Assembly: GCA_038087875.1 (NCBI GenBank)
Contig: CM075989.1
Span: 18,416,001-18,480,000, forward strand
Length of the DNA stretch: 64,000 nucleotides
From: Malacoraja senta
Lineage: Eukaryota
Direction: 5' to 3'
Shown here: piece after piece, positions 1,727-64,000 of the stretch
How the letters are laid out: each line of letters starts with the position of its first letter
Numbering within the stretch: position 1 is the first letter of the stretch
The notes under the pieces: generated by a model
Told to the model about the DNA's origin: nothing
The model's input: only the letters and a program-made list of their open reading frames with translations
Database searches by the model: none
Translations under genes and position numbers: made by a program

Positions 1727-3047
1727 AAGTGGTGAAATCATTGGACAAAGTCAGCATGGATTTACGAAAGGTAAATCATGTCTGACGAATCTTATAGAAT
1801 TTTTCGAGGATGTAACTAGTAGCGTGGATAGGGGAGAACCAGTGGATGTGGTGTATCTGGACTTCCAGAAGGCTTTCGACAAGGTCCCACATAAGAGATT
1901 AGTATACAAACTTAAAGCACATGGCATTGGGGGTTCAGTATTGATGTGGATAGAGAACTGGCTGGCAAACAGGAAGCAAAGAGTAGGAGTAAACGGGTCC
2001 TTTTCACAATGGCAGGCAGTGACTAGTGGGGTACCGCAATGCTCAGTGCTGGGACCCCAGCTATTTACAATATATATTAATGACCTGGATGAGGGAATTG
2101 AAGGCAATATCTCCAAGTTTGCGGATGACACTAAGCTGGGGGGCAGTGTTAGCTGTGATGAGGATGCTAGGAGACTGCAAGGTGACTTGGATAGGCTGGG
2201 TGAGTGGGCAAATGTGTGGCAGATGCAGTATAATGTGGATAAATGTGAGGTTATCCATTTTGGTGGCAAAAACAGGAAAGCAGACTATTTTCTAAATGGT
2301 GGCCGACTAGGAAAAGGGGAGATGCAGCGAGACCTGGGTGTCATGGTACACCAGTCATTGAAAGTAGGCATGCAGGTGCAGCAGGCAGTGAAGAAAGCGA
2401 ATGGTATGTTAGCTTTCATAGCAAAAGGATTTGAGTATAGGAGCAGGGAGGTTCTACTGCAGTTGTACAGGGTCTTGGTGAGACCACACCTGGAGTATTG
2501 CGTACAGTTTTGGTCTCCAAATCTGAGGAAGGACATTATTGCCATAGAGGGAGTGCAGAGAAGGTTCACCAGACTGATTCCTGGGATGTCAGGACTGTCT
2601 TATGAAGAAAGACTGGATAGACTTGGTTTATACTCTCTAGAATTTAGGAGATTGAGAGGGGATCTTATAGAAACTTACAAAATTCTTAAGGGGTTGGACA
2701 GGCTAGATGCAGGAAGATTGCTCCCGATGTTGGGGAAGTCCAGGACAAGGGGTCACAGCTTAAGGATAAGGGGGAAATCCTTTAAAACCGAGATGAGAAG
2801 AACTTTTTTCACACAGAGAGTGGTGAATCTCTGGAACTCTCTGCCACAGAGGGTAGTCGAGGCCAGTTCATTGGCTATATTTAAGAGGGAGCTAGATGTG
2901 GCCTTTGTGGCTAAAGGGATCAGAGGGTATGGAGAGAAGGCAGGTACGGGATACTGAGTTGGATGATCAGCCATGATCATATTGAATGGCGGTGCAGGCT
3001 CGAAGGGCTGAATGGCCTACTCCTGCACCTAATTTCTATGTTTCTAT
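1727..3047 (+). mobile_element. CR1 (HER1-like) LINE, 5'-truncated, young
   Basis: Open RT frame (YLDFQKAFDKV, SGVPQ, FADD, LVRPHLEYC) and 3'UTR ending (TTTCTATG)n. Inserted into a MITE with possible GTGA duplication. Confidence 0.95.
1824..2957 (+). CDS. CR1 ORF2 reverse transcriptase, C-terminal part (truncated transposon ORF, not a host gene)
   Basis: 377-aa uninterrupted frame with non-LTR RT motifs. Confidence 0.85.
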   Translation: MDRGEPVDVVYLDFQKAFDKVPHKRLVYKLKAHGIGGSVLMWIENWLANRKQRVGVNGSFSQWQAVTSGVPQCSVLGPQLFTIYINDLDEGIEGNISKFADDTKLGGSVSCDEDARRLQGDLDRLGEWANVWQMQYNVDKCEVIHFGGKNRKADYFLNGGRLGKGEMQRDLGVMVHQSLKVGMQVQQAVKKANGMLAFIAKGFEYRSREVLLQLYRVLVRPHLEYCVQFWSPNLRKDIIAIEGVQRRFTRLIPGMSGLSYEERLDRLGLYSLEFRRLRGDLIETYKILKGLDRLDAGRLLPMLGKSRTRGHSLRIRGKSFKTEMRRTFFTQRVVNLWNSLPQRVVEASSLAIFKRELDVAFVAKGIRGYGEKAGTGY

Positions 3048-9475: not shown

Positions 9476-11641
9476 CAGGTCACAGTGGCGCAGCGGTAGA
9501 GTTGCCGCCTTACAGCAAAATGCAACGCCGGAGACTCGGGTTCGATCCCGACCACGGGCGCTGTCTGTACGGAGTTTGTACGTTCTCCCCGTGACCTGCG
9601 TGGGTTTCCTCACACATTCCAAAGACGTACAGGTTTGTAGGTTCATTGGCTTGATAAATGTAAAAATTGTCCCATATAAAAGTGTCCAACTTCCAATGTA
9701 ATCCCTGGTGGACTCTTAGGAAGGTAGAAGGTACAAGGTTTAGTTTCTGGAACCTCCCTTTACATTTGTTTTTCTTCATTAACATACCGCCTTATTGCAT
9801 TGAAGAAGGTGTCTCATGTATTTAGGAAGTCTTAGTCAACTAATCCCACTCCCTTGCTCATTTACCATTTTCCTACATATTTCACCTTTTAATATTTATT
9901 AAGTTCACTTTTGAAAGCTACTATCAAACGTTTCCACAATCCTTTAATCCATTCCAGATCATAACAACAAGTTGACAAGGAGTAGACTGAGGTCCAATTA
10001 GGAGTGTGTTGGAGTAGTTAAGTTCCCATGGAAAGGTGTGAATGAGGAGCAGATGAGTGGAAGTAGGGGTGAAATTGTTAGGAATTGAGTGAATCATCTT
10101 AGTTTAGTTTGGTTTAGAGATACAGCGCAGAAACAGGCCCTTCGACCCACCGGGTCGGTGCCGACCAGCCATCACCCCGCACACTAACACTATCCTACAC
10201 ACACTAGGGACAATTTACAATTTTACCGAAGCCAATTAACCTACAAACTTTGGAGTTTGGGGGGAAACTGGAGCACCTGGAGAAAACCCACGGGGTGAAC
10301 GTGCAAACTCCGCGCAGACAGAACCCATCGTCAGGATCGAACCCGGGTGTCTGGCGCTGTAAGACTGCAACACTACCGCTGCGCCACCGTGCTGATCTCT
10401 TGAGCTTTTGTTCCCCCTATGAATTCCCTAAATGTTTGCTTATATATAAAATAAGTCTCTCATCTTAACTCTGGACAACGTTATACCTGAGATCAGTAGT
10501 TACCACATCCACCACAGTCAGAGGATACCAACGCAAACAATAGCAATAAACAATAATGTTTAAATACAGAGATTATTTGAGGAATTAAAAGCGATGGAGA
10601 GAGTATGATGCTGGGACTCGAGGCGCTGAGCTATAGAGGAAGCTTGGCGCGGTAGAATTGTTGCCTTACAACGCCGGAGACCGGGGTTTGATCCTGAGTA
10701 CAGATGCTTTCTGTACATTCTCCCTGTGACCGTGTGGGTTTTCTCCGGGTGCTCTGGCTTCCTCCCACACTCCAAAGACGAGCAAGTCTGCAGCTTAATT
10801 GGTTTCAGTAAAATTGTTAAATTATTCCTAGTGTGTAGGACAGTATTAGTGTACATGGGTTGCTGGTGGGCGTGGATTCGGTGGGCCGAGGGGTCTGTTT
10901 CCGCGCTGCATCTCGAAAACTAAAATTAACCACCATTCCGCCTCCTATTCAAAAGCTGTTGCCTTTATCTGAGGAACTGCGTCACAAAAAGGGAAATGGT
11001 TGATTTGCCCTTTATCGTTGCATTATCAATGAACCTCCAGAGGGATTTTAATCAAGGAATCTGAATTATGAATGATTTCTGTCCATTTTCCTCAAGGCAT
11101 CTTGTATCGTTGGGACCGTGAGCCAGAATGAGTTTCAGCTCTCTCGGGGACAAATTAATTCTGATGTAAATAAATGTCCATGCAGTGTGAAAGGAAGAAT
11201 TTAAAGGCCTGACAAGCATTTATGTTTTGGAGTTAACATATTAAGAGAAAAAGGATGGGTGACGTTCGTGTCTGAAGAAGGGTTCCGACCAGAAACGTCA
11301 CCTATTCCTTTTTCTCCAGAGATGCTGCCTGACCCGCCGAGTTACTCCAGCACTTGGCATCTATCTTCGGTATAAACCAGCATCTGCAGTTCCTTCCCTC
11401 ACAAGCTTATATGTCTCAGTCGGTTTCTAATTGCATTTGTGCCTTTTACTTTATGAGCGTTGAAACACATGACATTGTGATTAAAACAAGTCATAGAAAC
11501 ATGGAACTGCAGATGTTGGCCAATGCACAAAAGGATACAAAGTGCTGGAGCAATTTAGCAGGTCAGGAAACATCTCTGGAGAACATGGATAGGTGACGAT
11601 TCGGGTCGGGACCCTTCTCAGTCTGAAGAAGGGTCTCAACC

Positions 11642-11783
11642 CTCTTCTTCTTCTTGCGTACGGCGTGCACAGCCTAAAGTTGTAGGACAACTTGTTCTAT
11701 TTGATCTTACTTGATTGTGCACGCCAGGTTGATTGCATTCGTCGAAACAGGGCGGACCCCGTGAAGGTTGCAATCTCCCACCC
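11642..11783 (-). mobile_element. Short non-autonomous retroposon (~140 bp) with 5' HDV-like ribozyme fold and (GAA)n tail, copy 1
   Basis: Flanked by 11-bp TSD GGGTCTCAACC (11631-11641, 11784-11794). Minus strand ends ...GCTGTGCACGCCGTACGCAAGAAGAAGAAG. Homologous to the split copy at 15355-16370. Confidence 0.85.
11731..11783 (-). ncRNA. Minimal HDV/CPEB3-like ribozyme fold (copy 1, lacks G1)
   Basis: GGGUGG-GA-GAUUGCA(P2)-ACC(P3)-UUCACGG(L3)-GGU-CCGCCCU(P1')-GUUUCGA-CGAA(J4/2)-UGCAAUC(P2'). Confidence 0.75.
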
Positions 11784-12796
11784 GGGTCTCAACCTGAAAC
11801 ATCAACTAACCATGTTGTACAGAGATGCTGCCTGACCTGCTGAGTTACTCCAGCACTTTGTGTAGTTTTGTGCTTAGAACAAAATCAGTAATTAACAGAA
11901 AAGACAACAATAAAAACATCTGGCCCTCAAACTCAATAGATTTCTTCTGACTTGGATTTATTTTCAGTTGGTAACATGATGAATGTTGGAAATATTACTT
12001 GTTCAATACCATTAAGACTTGACTTCTATTGTGCAAATAAGCACGTTATATAACCAAGCTCACCTTGAAACACAGACAAAATATACGACTTGGCTGACAG
12101 TGAGATTTAAGGTGATCATTAAACTGCAACGCTCTGATGCAGATGATTTCCACTTGGGATTCTGATGGGACAACTACCTCCTGTAAACATTCAGATTGGC
12201 ATGAGTTTCCCCCTTTCTCTCTCCTGCTGCACTGAACGGAGATGAGGAATTAGTTACGACAAGCTTCTTACTCAAGGAAATTCATCTTCATCCTTGTTAT
12301 CAAATCCCACCATGGCTTTGCCCTTCCCCTCCCTTTAAACTCACCCAGTCCCACAGCATTCAGTTATATCTCTCCTTCTCCAGTCCTGCTCTTGTGAACA
12401 CATCTAACCATTAGGAGGGATACTGCCTCTGGAATGATATTCATTCAAAGGACGCGGGCTTTGAAGGCTGAGCCCGCATTTAATTGATGATAGACTCAAA
12501 GTGCCGGAAGAACTCAGCGGGTCAGGCAGCATCTCTGGAGAAAGACGATGGGTGACATTTGGGCCGGAACCCTTCTGCAGACGGATGAAGTGTTCCGACC
12601 TGAAATGTTACCCATCCTTTTATCTCCGGAGATACTGCCTGATCCGCTGAGTTACTCCAGCACTTTGTGCCTATCTTCGGTATAAACCAGTATTGCAGTT
12701 TCTCCCACCTTTTAATTGCCCATCCCTAATGGCCCTTGAGAGGCGTGGTGCAATGTTTTGTTGAACTGCTGCAACCCTTGAGGGATGATACACTAA

Positions 12797-14600: not shown

Positions 14601-15414
14601 TGAAGTCAATGTGAATATTTCTTCAAATGTTCATGGCATGATTTGTTCAACAATATTTATCACTGACACAAGTTGATTAATTTTGCCATCAAATATTAAT
14701 ATTAAGCTATACTATGTAAGAACAGGCATCATTCAGATTACAAAGTCAATTTTAAACTACTAGTCTGAGAAATATCGTCTGCCCATTCTCTCCACAGATC
14801 CGCTGAGTTCCTCCAGCACTTTGTGTTTTGCTTATGATCCCAGCATCTGCAATTCCATGTGTCTCCATTGAACCACTGGATCAGCCGTATGAATATGAGC
14901 TCTTCATATTTCGATTGGGTAAGTCTGTCAGAGAAAAGGCTGCTGTTTGGCCTTTCTACTAGTTGCTGGCAGTCTGAGTCTGCAGAGTTCCCCTCGCACA
15001 TCAATAATATTGCCTTTCTGGGTGTGGAAGGATAGCAGGCAAACGCACAGTTGTTCTTGAACGCATTGCCGGGGATCCAACTTTTGTGTTGGTCGGGTTG
15101 CCCATCATAGATTCATAGGCTCAGTGGATATTATAGTGAGCTAGTTTAAAATCATCGCCACGGACAATATGTTTCATTTAGTTCCACGTGAGCGTGTGGT
15201 GTGGATGGGCAGTATTCAAGAACTCGCTCATTCAAACCTTGAGCCATATAGAATCTTGCAATAATAGAGCCATATAGCACTGAAATAGGCCGTTCAGCCC
15301 AACTTTCCCTTGCTAACCCAGATGCCCCATTTGTCTACATATTTTCCCAAATCTTCTTCTTCTTTCGTGTGGCGTGCACAGCCTAAAGTTGTTGGACAAC
15401 TTGTTCTATTTGAT

Positions 15415-16277
15415 GGTACACAAAAATGCTGGAGAAACTCAGCGGGTGCAGCAGCATCTATGGAGCGAAGGAAACAGGCAACGTTTCGGGCCGAAACCCT
15501 TCTTCAGACTGATAGGGGGTGGGGAGAAGAAAGGAAAAAAGGCGGAGGAGGAGCCCGAGGGCTGGGGGAGGGGAGGAGACAACCAGATGGCTGATGAAGG
15601 GGAGGGGACAGCAAGGGCTAGCAGAATTGGGAGAATTCAATGTTCAAGCCCCCAGGATGTAGACTGCCCAAGGTGCATTTCCTCCAATTTCCGGTGTTGC
15701 TCGCTGTGGCCATGGAGGAGACCCAGGACAGAGAGGTCAGATACGGAATGGGAGGGGGAGTTGAAGTGCTGAGCCACCGGGAGGTCAGGTTGGTTACCAA
15801 GCGGAGGCTTGCCGATCGTTTTAGCCGAACACCTCCGGTCGGTCCGCAATAACCAACCTGACCTCCCGGTGGCTCAGCACTTCAACTCCCCCTCCCATTC
15901 CGTATCTGACCTCTCTGTCCTGGGTCTCCTCCATGGCCACAGCCAGCAACACCGGAAATTGGAGGAAATGCACCTCATATTCCGCTTGGGCAGTCTACAT
16001 CCTGGGGGCTTGAACATTGAATTCTCCCAATTCTGCTAGCCCTTGCTGTCCCCTCCCCTTCATCAGCCCTCTGGTTGTCTCCTCCCCTCCCCCAGCCCTC
16101 GGGCTCCTCCTCCGCCTTTTTTCCTTTCTTCTCCCCACCCCCTATCAGTCTGAAGAAGGGTTTCGGCCCGAAACGTTGCCTGTTTCCTTCGCTCCGTAGA
16201 TGCTGCTGCACCCGCTGAGTTTCTCCAGCATTTTTGTGTACCTTCGATTTTCCAGCATCTGCAGTTCCTTCTTTAAC
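15415..16277 (+). mobile_element. Penelope-like retroelement 3' end (GIY-YIG C-terminus + pLTR) with inverted 5' duplication
   Basis: 15797-16039 encodes TKRRLADRF/AEHLRSVRNNQPDLPVAQHFNSPSH...HLIFRLGSLHPGGLNIEF, typical of PLE GIY-YIG. 15415-15796 is a near-perfect inverted copy of ~15850-16241. 16-bp TSD ACTTGTTCTATTTGAT (15399-15414, 16278-16293). Confidence 0.9.
16145..16182 (+). ncRNA. Minimal type I hammerhead motif in Penelope pLTR
   Basis: CTGAAGA-AGGG-TTTCGG-CCC-GAAACGTT: CUGAnGA and GAAA cores, short stem II, palindromic ACGU in place of stem III. Mirrored on the minus strand at ~15476-15512. Stem I is poor in this copy. Confidence 0.55.
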
Positions 16278-16316
16278 ACTTGTTCTATTTGATCTTCCGT
16301 TTGTGCACGTCGAGTT

Positions 16317-16370
16317 GATTGCATTAGTCGAAACAGGGCGGACCAGGTGAAGGTTGCAATCTTCCACCCC
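16317..16370 (-). ncRNA. Minimal HDV/CPEB3-like ribozyme fold (54 nt, copy 2)
   Basis: GGGGUGG(P1)-AA-GAUUGCA(P2)-ACC(P3)-UUCACCU(L3)-GGU-CCGCCCU(P1', G1.U wobble)-GUUUCGA-CUAA-UGCAAUC(P2'). G1 abuts the TSD. Confidence 0.8.
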
Positions 16371-16659
16371 TCCCAAATCTAAAACCTTTCCTATTCATGT
16401 ACATGTCCAAGTGTCTTATAAATGATGTTATAGTACCTGCCTCGACTACCTCTTCTGGCAACTCATTCCATATACGCACCACCCTCTGAAAAAGTTGCCC
16501 TCCAGGTCCATATCAAACCTTGCCCCTCGAGTACCTTAAACATATGTCCCCTGGTTCTTGATTCCCTTACTCTGGGTGAAAGGCTCTGTGCGTTCACCCC
16601 ATCTATTGCTCTCATATCTCAAACCACCACAGGGAACTTCATGTTGTTGCCATTCTTAC

Positions 16660-62760: not shown

Positions 62761-63360
62761 TTGGAGGGGGGAGAAGAGAGAATGGACGGAGAGTGAGTTA
62801 GTCAGGACGAACGTGGTCAAGCAATGGTCCTGGAAGCAGAATATCTCTCTGCTTCTCTCCATCCCATCCTATAAAATGTCTTTCTGAAAATTGCTGTGGT
62901 CTGCAATGAGGATCCAAACTTCTCCATTAATGGTTAAGTGCAAATAGAACACTGTGCCACTTTGAGAGTAGGCAACATGCCCCGACTGTTGCCACCTGGT
63001 TTCAGCTGTGCTGGTTACGTCCAGAGGCACAAACCCAATGATCACCAGGTCACCACGTGAAATCCTTGCTGCACATGAGTTCAGTTTAGTTGATGGTCAC
63101 GTGTACCGCTTGTGTGGCGTGCTAACCAGTCAGCAGAAAGACAATGTGTGATTTCAATCGAGCCATTCACTGTGTACAGATACATGATAAGGGAATAAGG
63201 TTTAGTGCAAGGTAAAGCCAGCCAAGGCAAGAGTCAAGAGTGTTTTATTGTCATATGTCCCAGATAGAACAATGAAATTCTTACTTGCTGCAGCACAACA
63301 GAATATGTAAACATAGTACACTGTAAACAATATGATAAACGAGAAAAAAAGTTCAGAATG

Positions 63361-63464
63361 TGTATGCATACATACATACATACATACATACATACATACA
63401 TACATACATACATGTATATACACACACATACATACATACATACATACATACATACATACATACA

Positions 63465-63498
<34 letters not shown>

Positions 63499-63656
63499 CA
63501 TACATACATACATACATACATACATACATACATGTATATACACATACATACATACATACATACATACATACATACATACATACATACATACATACATACA
63601 TACATACATACATACATACATACATACATACATGTATATATACACACACACATACA

Positions 63657-63690
<34 letters not shown>

Positions 63691-64000
63691 CATACATACA
63701 TACATACATACATACATACATGTATATACACATACATACATACATACATACATACATACATACATACATACATACATACATACACACATACATACATGTA
63801 TATATACACACACATATACATACATACATACATACATACATACATACATACATACATACATTCATACATACATTCATACATACATACATACATACATACA
63901 TACATACATACATACATACATACATACATACACACATACATACATACACACATACATGTATATATACATACATACATACAAACATACATGCACACATACA
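63361..64000. repeat. (CATA)n microsatellite adjoining a LINE-type tail (63228-63355, minus strand)
   Basis: Direct reading; runs off the window end. Confidence 0.95.

What the first reader, a model, noticed from the sequence alone, without database searches (positions are those of the whole stretch)
11631..11794. Second copy of the ribozyme retroposon: differences avoid the stems; structured 3' domain
Seen: independent insertion with its own 11-bp TSD. Versus copy 2, the substitutions in the head fall only in J1/2 (GA vs AA), L3 (UUCACGG vs UUCACCU) and J4/2 (CGAA vs CUAA), plus loss of G1. All other paired positions are identical. Known: CGAA and CUAA are the variants of the genomic and antigenomic HDV ribozymes. 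The 3' half forms a 10-bp stem GGCGUGCACA/UGUGCACGCC enclosing hairpin AAGUUG-UCC(U/A)A-CAACUU, again varying in the loop. Inference: selection on RNA structure in the source elements; the 3' domain may be the RT recognition signal. Two copies give weak statistics.
Basis: partly seen in the sequence, partly recalled or inferred. Interest (0 to 1): 0.8.

Follow-up and report, generated by a model that had tools for sequence, protein, structure and literature searches.

The report
Ribozyme-headed mini-LINE with paired ends
This is one of thousands of copies of a 143-base jumping element cut down from a Vingi-like LINE; it starts with a fold predicted to be a self-cutting RNA, its two ends are complementary at a position shared by five related families and likely form a handle for the copying enzyme, and a sister family's front end closely matches the mammalian CPEB3 ribozyme, which likely came from such an element.

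Summary
The element (11642-11783, minus strand, 11-bp TSD) is real: a non-coding derivative of a 3.05-kb Vingi-like LINE, keeping the LINE's first ~85 and last ~36 bases. A 3' 19-mer has 5,722 exact matches; 86 of 97 sampled copies keep the head. The head is a 54-nt HDV-type fold without P4. The fold covaries across six families in this genome (14 of 18 pairs change on both sides); cleavage is untested.

Both L3 differences are departures from a shared consensus, both copies carry lesions at positions important for catalysis (G1 lost; G25C), and copy 2 has an A·C mismatch in the 3' stem. At subfamily level, 15 of 17 variable positions are unpaired.

Two results go further. The outer 3' stem is inherited from the LINE, where it joins 5' UTR to 3' end; five families pair at one fixed register (36 of 45 pairs, best of 120 permutations; register found post hoc). 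A sister LINE's head scores 63.8 bits against Rfam's mammalian CPEB3 ribozyme (cut-off 35). I found neither in print, but four key papers and patents were not readable.

The parts
11631..11641 (.). Target-site duplication, copy at the element's 3' side (11 bp)
   Evidence: identical to 11784-11794
11642..11783 (-). Short non-autonomous element, subfamily A, 142 nt (family 143 nt; this copy lacks G1)
   Evidence: 39 further hits of 97-99% identity among the 40 scored; alignment
11731..11783 (-). HDV-type ribozyme fold without P4 (P1, P2, P3, P1.1; predicted catalytic C44 at 11741); same head as the partner LINE
11716..11725 (-). 5' arm of the terminal helix; begins at the 6th base after P2; derived from the LINE 5' UTR
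11677..11693 (-). Inner 6-bp hairpin with 5-nt loop; 3' arm is the last codons of the LINE ORF; only 3 bp in the LINE, absent in this form from subfamilies C and F
11662..11671 (-). 3' arm of the terminal helix (LINE 3' UTR)
11657..11661 (-). 5-nt motif between helix and tail (ATACG in the family, first base changed here); A(T/C)(A/T)CG in five families
11642..11656 (-). (AAG)n tail shared with the partner LINE
11784..11794 (.). Target-site duplication at the 5' junction
15355..16370 (-). Second copy, subfamily B, TSD 15345-15354 / 16371-16380, G1 present, G25C in L3, interrupted by a nested insertion
15415..16277 (.). 863-bp palindromic insertion inside copy 2, with a 16-bp TSD (15399-15414 / 16278-16293)
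   Evidence: self-complementary at 93% over 828 bases

Best explanation
The element is a non-coding, internally deleted derivative of a Vingi-like LINE whose head is predicted to self-cleave just before G1, whose two ends are complementary and likely pair into a terminal helix in front of a conserved 5-base motif and the (AAG)n tail, and which is likely copied in trans by the LINE's endonuclease-reverse transcriptase. Shown: shared 5' and 3' ends with the LINE, TSDs, 5' junctions at G1, covariation of the HDV fold, fixed-register end complementarity. Inferred: a copy is transcribed as part of a host transcript; the ribozyme frees an RNA beginning at G1; the 5' arm and 3' arm pair, in the LINE across about 3 kb and in the short element across about 45 bases; the protein binds this helix plus motif and primes target-primed reverse transcription on the tail. 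A signal that needs both ends would explain why the derivatives keep both ends. The window's two copies are probably dead ends as ribozymes (G1 lost; G25C).
For: LINE partner shares the head and the last 36 bases; subfamily C is a clean 5'-96 plus 3'-36 deletion. 86 of 97 unique 3'-selected copies keep the head; a TSD was found in 73 of 86 and ends at G1 or one base in for 56 of 73. HDV fold over 8 rows from 6 families: 93.6% of cells paired, 14 of 18 pairs change on both sides, 0 of 500 shuffles; descriptor hits only at these heads in 2.4 Mb of both-strand sequence, 0 in 1.2 Mb shuffled. Terminal helix: 8, 5, 9, 6, 8 of 9 pairs in V1, V3, V4, V5, V7; identity pairing is the best of 120 permutations (36 versus mean 19.2); slides give 10-16; register-free test without V1, Fisher p 0.003 for helix length. 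V7 is a second short family with the same layout; 20 of 24 copies could be scored or kept as follows: 15 with 8 of 9 pairs, 4 with 7, 2 lower, 3 not scored. An alligator SINE printed in the supplement of PMC5786205 shows P2, 5 bases, a 5-bp hairpin, then ACACG and an A-rich tail (read by eye). In 20 LINE copies chosen by their 3' end, 4 of 6 inversions consist of the extreme 5' end joined to a distant 3' piece; also 3 of 8 V3 loci and 1 of 9 V4 loci.
Against: No cleavage, structure probing or retrotransposition was measured. Rfam HDV models score the head far below their cut-offs (18.7 of 50 and 14.4 of 44 bits, E 1.3 and 2.1). Within the V1 family there is no compensatory double change. The register was recognised after V1, V4 and V7 had been looked at; V3 and V5 give only 5 and 6 of 9 (p 0.023 and 0.049), and V5 rests on one 5' copy. 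Family V2 (different tail) shows no such helix (p 0.16 and 1.0) and was not. The V1 helix has a palindromic core, so it could also be a repeated motif. Only 36 of 86 copies keep every head pair and the four key bases. The partner is known only from broken copies about 8-12% apart, and V7's partner was not found. The inverted 5' pieces that end before base 96 could come from short-element RNA in trans.
Confidence: 0.72

Rival explanations
1. Same origin and ribozyme, but the end-to-end complementarity has no role in copying: recognition uses only the 3' end, and both ends are kept because the head supplies the 5' end (ribozyme or promoter).
For: R2 SIDEs are explained this way (PMC3414825 passages); V2 lacks the helix; the LINE, E and B tolerate an A·C mismatch; B and C 3' halves fold no better than shuffles.
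Against: Different arm sequences pair at one register in five families; the five copies with deletions near the 5' arm have different end points and form no subfamily.
Confidence: 0.17
2. The head is conserved mainly as a DNA-level internal promoter, as Pr77 is in trypanosomes, and the P4-less fold cleaves poorly or not at all; precise 5' ends come from transcription start.
For: Pr77 is both promoter and ribozyme (PMC4035085 passages); head sequence is nearly invariant across subfamilies; low Rfam scores.
Against: Sister families change stem sequences with compensation, including P1.1 C-G to U-A, which a promoter would not need; P4-less ribozymes are active in vitro (PMC10879173 and PMC6326823 passages).
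Confidence: 0.09
3. The element is a polymerase III SINE with an unrelated head, and the HDV fold is a chance pattern.
For: None found beyond a weak B-box-like look of the UUCG segment (recalled consensus, not tested).
Against: The head is the LINE's own 5' end; no tRNA, 5S or 7SL match at E up to 10; descriptor control 0 in 1.2 Mb.
Confidence: 0.02

Closest known systems
Bipartite non-autonomous LINEs: Vingi-1_EE derivatives, NARTc/RIME, R2 SIDEs (PMC5786205, PMC4035085, PMC3414825; passages read)
   Same: 5' and 3' ends of a LINE joined, no ORF, TSDs, precise 5' junctions; NARTc and SIDEs carry an active HDV-like ribozyme at the 5' end.
   Different: [quoted passage not shown]
Vingi clade of APE-type non-LTR retrotransposons (PMC13708176, passages read)
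   Same: Compact single ORF with endonuclease and RT, no RNase H; donor RNAs in the engineered systems carry both 5' and 3' UTRs.
   Different: Clade name rests on architecture and an indirect sequence link, not on a tree with named references; the passages read mention no Vingi ribozyme or end pairing.
Minimal HDV-like and theta ribozymes (PMC10879173, passages and section 7 read)
   Same: No P4, nested double pseudoknot, catalytic C first in J4/2.
   Different: Those are nearly all in phages and often follow a tRNA; this one heads a multicopy animal retroposon.
Mammalian CPEB3 ribozyme (Rfam RF00622; PMC8233481, passages read)
   Same: Same 7-nt L3 and single P1.1 pair in this element; sister family V4 scores 40.7-63.8 bits against a cut-off of 35 and shares stem sequence with the model.
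   Different: The window element itself does not match the model; CPEB3 is a single intronic copy said not to be found outside mammals, whereas V4 heads a 3.1-kb LINE.

Membership tests
HDV-like ribozyme | Nested double pseudoknot P1, P2, P3, P1.1 | tested here: met
   All pairs in all five subfamily consensuses; 14 of 18 pairs covary across six families
HDV-like ribozyme | G1 paired with a pyrimidine at the cleavage site | tested here: met
   G1 in 76 of 86 copies; not met in the window copy, which lacks G1
HDV-like ribozyme | U20, C24, G25 in L3 and catalytic C with two A in J4/2 | tested here: met
   U20 83, C24 73, G25 77, C44 82, A46 86, A47 85 of 86; copy 2 has G25C
HDV-like ribozyme | Rfam gathering score (RF00094, RF02682) | tested here: not met
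   18.7 of 50 and 14.4 of 44 bits; the models carry a P4 that this head lacks
HDV-like ribozyme | Self-cleavage 5' of G1 | not testable with these tools
   Only indirect: TSD ends at G1 or one base in for 56 of 73 copies
Bipartite non-autonomous LINE (SIDE type) | 5' end taken from an autonomous LINE | tested here: met
   LINE copies begin with the same head
Bipartite non-autonomous LINE (SIDE type) | 3' end and tail taken from the same LINE | tested here: met
   Last 36 bases and (AAG)n tail shared
Bipartite non-autonomous LINE (SIDE type) | Dispersed copies with TSDs, no ORF, no small-RNA head | tested here: met
   TSD 8-18 bp in 73 of 86; no tRNA, 5S or 7SL match
Vingi clade (partner LINE) | Single ORF of about 1000 aa with APE endonuclease and RT, no RNase H | tested here: met
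   Closest protein P0001 (1019 aa, 72% over the RT query) has these Pfam domains and no RNase H; V4 has a 1008-aa open frame; V1 copies themselves are broken
Vingi clade (partner LINE) | Placement with named Vingi elements in an RT tree | not testable with these tools
   No named reference among 120 listed homologues
Vingi clade (partner LINE) | Sequence link to a named Vingi | tested here: inconclusive
   V4 and V6 heads resemble the printed 5' end of Vingi-2_Gav by eye; V1 is 32-50% identical to V4 in protein pieces
Theta ribozymes | Phage-encoded, often directly after a tRNA | tested here: not met
   Heads a retroposon in a 1.94-Gb genome
CPEB3 ribozyme family RF00622 | Score above 35 bits, window element and its LINE (V1) | tested here: not met
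   No match at E up to 10 for L003 or E up to 3 for L107 and L099
CPEB3 ribozyme family RF00622 | Score above 35 bits, sister families V4 and V6 | tested here: met
   V4: 63.8, 61.3, 59.7, 57.1, 52.6, 44.0, 40.7 bits; V6: 51.1 and 34.4 bits
CPEB3 ribozyme family RF00622 | Single copy in a CPEB3 intron | tested here: not met
   V4 heads lie at the 5' end of LINE copies on several contigs

The most novel reading that the evidence does not exclude
Vingi LINE RNAs close into a panhandle: a helix starting six bases after the 5' ribozyme and ending at a conserved motif before the tail is the cis-signal for copying, which is why this clade throws off two-ended mini-elements; and the mammalian CPEB3 ribozyme is the domesticated head of a Vingi element or its SINE. 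Neither is in print.
Probability: 0.45. Interest if true: 0.88.

Novelty: new variant of a known kind. Interest (0 to 1): 0.7.

Why it matters
Ribozyme-headed, two-ended mini-LINEs are a known kind, and this copy is an ordinary decayed insertion. What the family shows is less ordinary. It puts a P4-less HDV-type fold, otherwise reported mostly from phages, at thousands of loci in an animal genome. It points to an end-to-end helix as the recognition signal of Vingi elements; that would answer why only a few LINE clades produce bipartite derivatives (stated as unknown in PMC5786205) and gives a design rule to test in the Vingi-based gene-writing systems whose donor RNAs carry both UTRs (PMC13708176). 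And it supplies candidate outgroups and a likely origin for the CPEB3 ribozyme, which PMC8233481 says has not been found outside mammals.

Tried and rejected
Rfam scan of the whole window at E up to 5 gave no ribozyme match; only the 251-base scan showed the two weak HDV matches. Searches for Vingi elements with both ends in other organisms gave nothing usable: metagenome contigs 1 weak locus, viral contigs none, genome contigs 45 loci, judged from the table to be partial or distant and not analysed further. Sequencing runs: no RNA holder listed; contigs of four runs guessed to be RNA cover the element but say nothing on expression or 5' ends; the raw-read run X22 laid 0 reads. The C-to-A/G/T control of my descriptor is not valid: its hits are the same heads read in a shifted register. 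One search used a wrong 5' anchor for V5 and is replaced. The outer-helix print is off by one column; the counts use columns 2-101 and are unaffected. MAFFT shifted P1 of V5 and V7 in alignment A2; both rows were kept. V6 was left out of the end-pairing tests because its 3' end was not found; V2 was left out because it lacks the motif. An early idea that the inner hairpin arm derives from the LINE 5' UTR was dropped: subfamily E shows its UUG comes from the LINE 3' end. Our earlier findings held nothing on this sequence or on Vingi. Not readable: Kojima 2011, Ruminski 2011, Webb 2009, Webb and Luptak 2011; Repbase entries and patents were not searchable; supplements other than that of PMC5786205 (part 3 of 15 and a term search) were not seen and may bear on novelty.

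Full report
Observation. The minus strand of 11642-11783 reads as a 142-nt element between 11-bp direct repeats, inserted into an abundant palindromic repeat. A second copy lies at 15355-16370 with a 10-bp TSD and is split by an 863-bp palindromic insertion that has its own 16-bp TSD. In the 3' half the 10-bp stem is perfect only in this copy; copy 2 has an A·C mismatch at the second pair.

Family. The genome (1.94 Gb; probably a cartilaginous fish from a recalled look of the flanking repeat, not tested) has 5,722 exact matches to a 3' 19-mer and 4,377 to a 5' 19-mer that misses the AA variant; reversed controls gave 0. Fifteen of 30 head-selected copies carry the exact 3' 19-mer (counted by eye), so the total is of the order of 10,000 (estimate). 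I took the first 100 matches along contig 1; 3 were duplicates. Of 97, 86 are short elements with a head, 8 are truncated or interrupted and 3 are LINE ends. A TSD was found for 73 of 86, 8-18 bp long, ending at G1 for 35 and one base in for 21. The family is also in runs labelled organisms C, D and F, with the same variable sites.

Partner. A locus fetched for another reason held an ORF end followed by the same last 36 bases and tail. Walking upstream gave a 3.05-kb LINE whose 5' end is the same head. Its RT matches PF00078; the closest database protein has endonuclease and RT, a weak zinc-binding match and no RNase H, the layout given for Vingi in PMC13708176 (passages). Subfamily C is the LINE's first 96 bases joined to its last 36. 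PMC5786205 (passages) describes such bipartite derivatives for RTE, Ingi, Vingi and R2 and says the reason for this bias is unknown.

The 86 copies fall into subfamilies A1 (28), A2 (23), B (13), D (9), E (8) and 5 with deletions, 2.0-5.6% from their own consensus. All share L3 UUCACGU. The window copy's U26G was seen in none of the 30 other rows; copy 2's G25C was in 2 of 29 B rows selected for likeness to it. These are mostly post-insertion changes. Private non-CpG substitutions hit paired sites at 101 of 3,955 and unpaired sites at 124 of 3,565 (p 0.02; head only 63 of 2,829 versus 31 of 1,073, p 0.24), close to neutral, with unresolved sub-lineages a likely cause of the small excess. At consensus level 17 columns vary; 15 are unpaired, column 32 switches U-A to U·G and column 61 is A·C in the LINE, E and B but G-C in A and D. 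Binomial p is 0.0006, or 0.001-0.002 after removing the columns fixed by the search motif; for the head alone p is 0.26. No compensatory double change occurs inside the family. G25 and G1 are described as important for catalysis (PMC6326823 and PMC8233481 passages), so both window copies are probably weak ribozymes.

The fold. A protein search found four more LINE families in the genome (V2-V5), a pattern search a fifth (V6) and a descriptor scan a second short family (V7, 212 exact matches, about 165 nt, 24 copies read). Each begins with an HDV-type fold of different stem sequence. Over 8 rows from six families, 93.6% of cells pair, 14 of 18 pairs change on both sides, and 0 of 500 shuffles reach this; slid partners give 40-47%. 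V1 alone lacks P4: six bases link P1.1 to the predicted catalytic C. P4-less ribozymes are reported active, and nearly all from phages (PMC10879173, passages and section 7).

The terminal helix. The 5' arm of the outer stem is LINE 5' UTR and the 3' arm is LINE 3' UTR, so in the LINE the two are 3 kb apart. In a register-free test the longest helix with each family's 5' window was with its own 3' end for V1-V4 and tied for V5; Fisher p without V1 was 0.003 for length and 0.0001 for energy; V2 was not significant. In V1, V3, V4, V5 and V7 the arm starts at the sixth base after P2 and its partner ends just before an A(T/C)(A/T)CG motif and the AAG tail: 36 of 45 positions pair, the best of 120 permutations, against 10-16 for eleven other starts. 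I saw this register after looking at V1, V4 and V7, so V3 (5 of 9, then a one-base shift) and V5 (6 of 9, one 5' copy) are the fairer tests. Of 24 V7 copies 15 keep 8 of 9 pairs, 4 keep 7, 2 fewer, and 3 could not be scored. An alligator SINE in the supplement of PMC5786205, whose 3' part the author labels unknown, shows by eye P2, five bases, a 5-bp hairpin, ACACG and an A-rich tail. Insertions fit close ends: of 20 LINE copies chosen by their 3' end, 6 have inversions, and in 4 the inverted piece is the extreme 5' end joined to a 3' piece that starts 0.7-2.0 kb further on; the same form occurs in V3 and V4. That ordinary twin priming leaves only small gaps is recalled, not checked.

Mechanism. 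Shown: origin from the LINE's ends, TPRT hallmarks, junction at G1, covarying fold, fixed-register complementarity. Inferred: host read-through transcription, self-cleavage, helix formation, binding by the LINE protein, priming on the tail. This follows R2 SIDEs and NARTc for the ribozyme step (PMC3414825 and PMC4035085 passages); the helix step is my inference.

CPEB3. Heads of V4 score up to 63.8 bits against Rfam's mammalian CPEB3 model (cut-off 35), V6 51.1 and 34.4, V2 19.9, while V1, V3 and V5 gave no match. The match includes stem bases that differ among the other families, which argues for descent over convergence. The crocodilian Vingi-2_Gav and SINE2-1_AMi heads printed in the supplement look closer still to the model consensus, the SINE also in its P4 stem (by eye). 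[quoted passage not shown] This concerns sister families, not the window element.

In print? Ten searches. No paper holds both 'CPEB3' and 'Vingi'; the 36 listed papers with 'Vingi' show no such title; the panhandle search returned six papers, seen as listings only, none on this topic by title. [quoted passage not shown] Four primary papers, Repbase and patents could not be read, so novelty is uncertain.

Verdict. The copy is an ordinary, decayed member of a new family of a known kind. The end-to-end helix and the CPEB3 link are the parts worth testing. Interest 0.70.

Noticed in passing
L332-L336, L344-L349, L357, L358 (V4); L347, L356 (V6): 5' ends of these LINE families match the Rfam mammalian CPEB3 ribozyme model at or above its cut-off (up to 63.8 bits versus 35).
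   Followed up: partly
L019:2947-3039, L370-L394 (V7): A second ribozyme-headed short retroposon family, about 165 nt, 212 exact 19-mer matches, with long P4, TSDs and the same terminal layout; partner LINE not found.
   Followed up: partly
L333, L334 (5' ends): The first 26 bases of the V4 ribozyme are repeated three to six times in tandem at the 5' junction.
   Followed up: no
L131, L134, L143, L146, L348, L359, L362, L366 and many of L099-L124: LINE copies made of the extreme 5' end, inverted, joined to a distant 3' piece.
   Followed up: partly
L325, L328, L335, L339 (V2): This family ends in a (TAAA)n tail directly after the stop codon, lacks the terminal helix, and by eye its reading frame runs back into the ribozyme without an ATG.
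   Followed up: no
window 15415-16277: 863-bp near-perfect palindrome (93% over 828 bases) with a 16-bp TSD, built from the same abundant repeat that flanks copy 1; not identified.
   Followed up: no
L251-L253: Three nearby loci share a deletion of the P3-P1 3' strands, lack the tail and run into a C-rich repeat; probably local duplication, not retrotransposition.
   Followed up: no
window 46500-58000 and 63350-64000: Long G/T-rich microsatellite array of about 11.5 kb and a TATG/TACA array on the other strand.
   Followed up: no
window 1737-2516: Fragment of a distant reverse transcriptase (26% identity to P0001, E 1e-19), from another LINE.
   Followed up: no
L279, L280, L281, L283: Vingi-like ORF fragments (38-44% identity) on short contigs of prokaryotic MAGs, probably eukaryotic contamination.
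   Followed up: no
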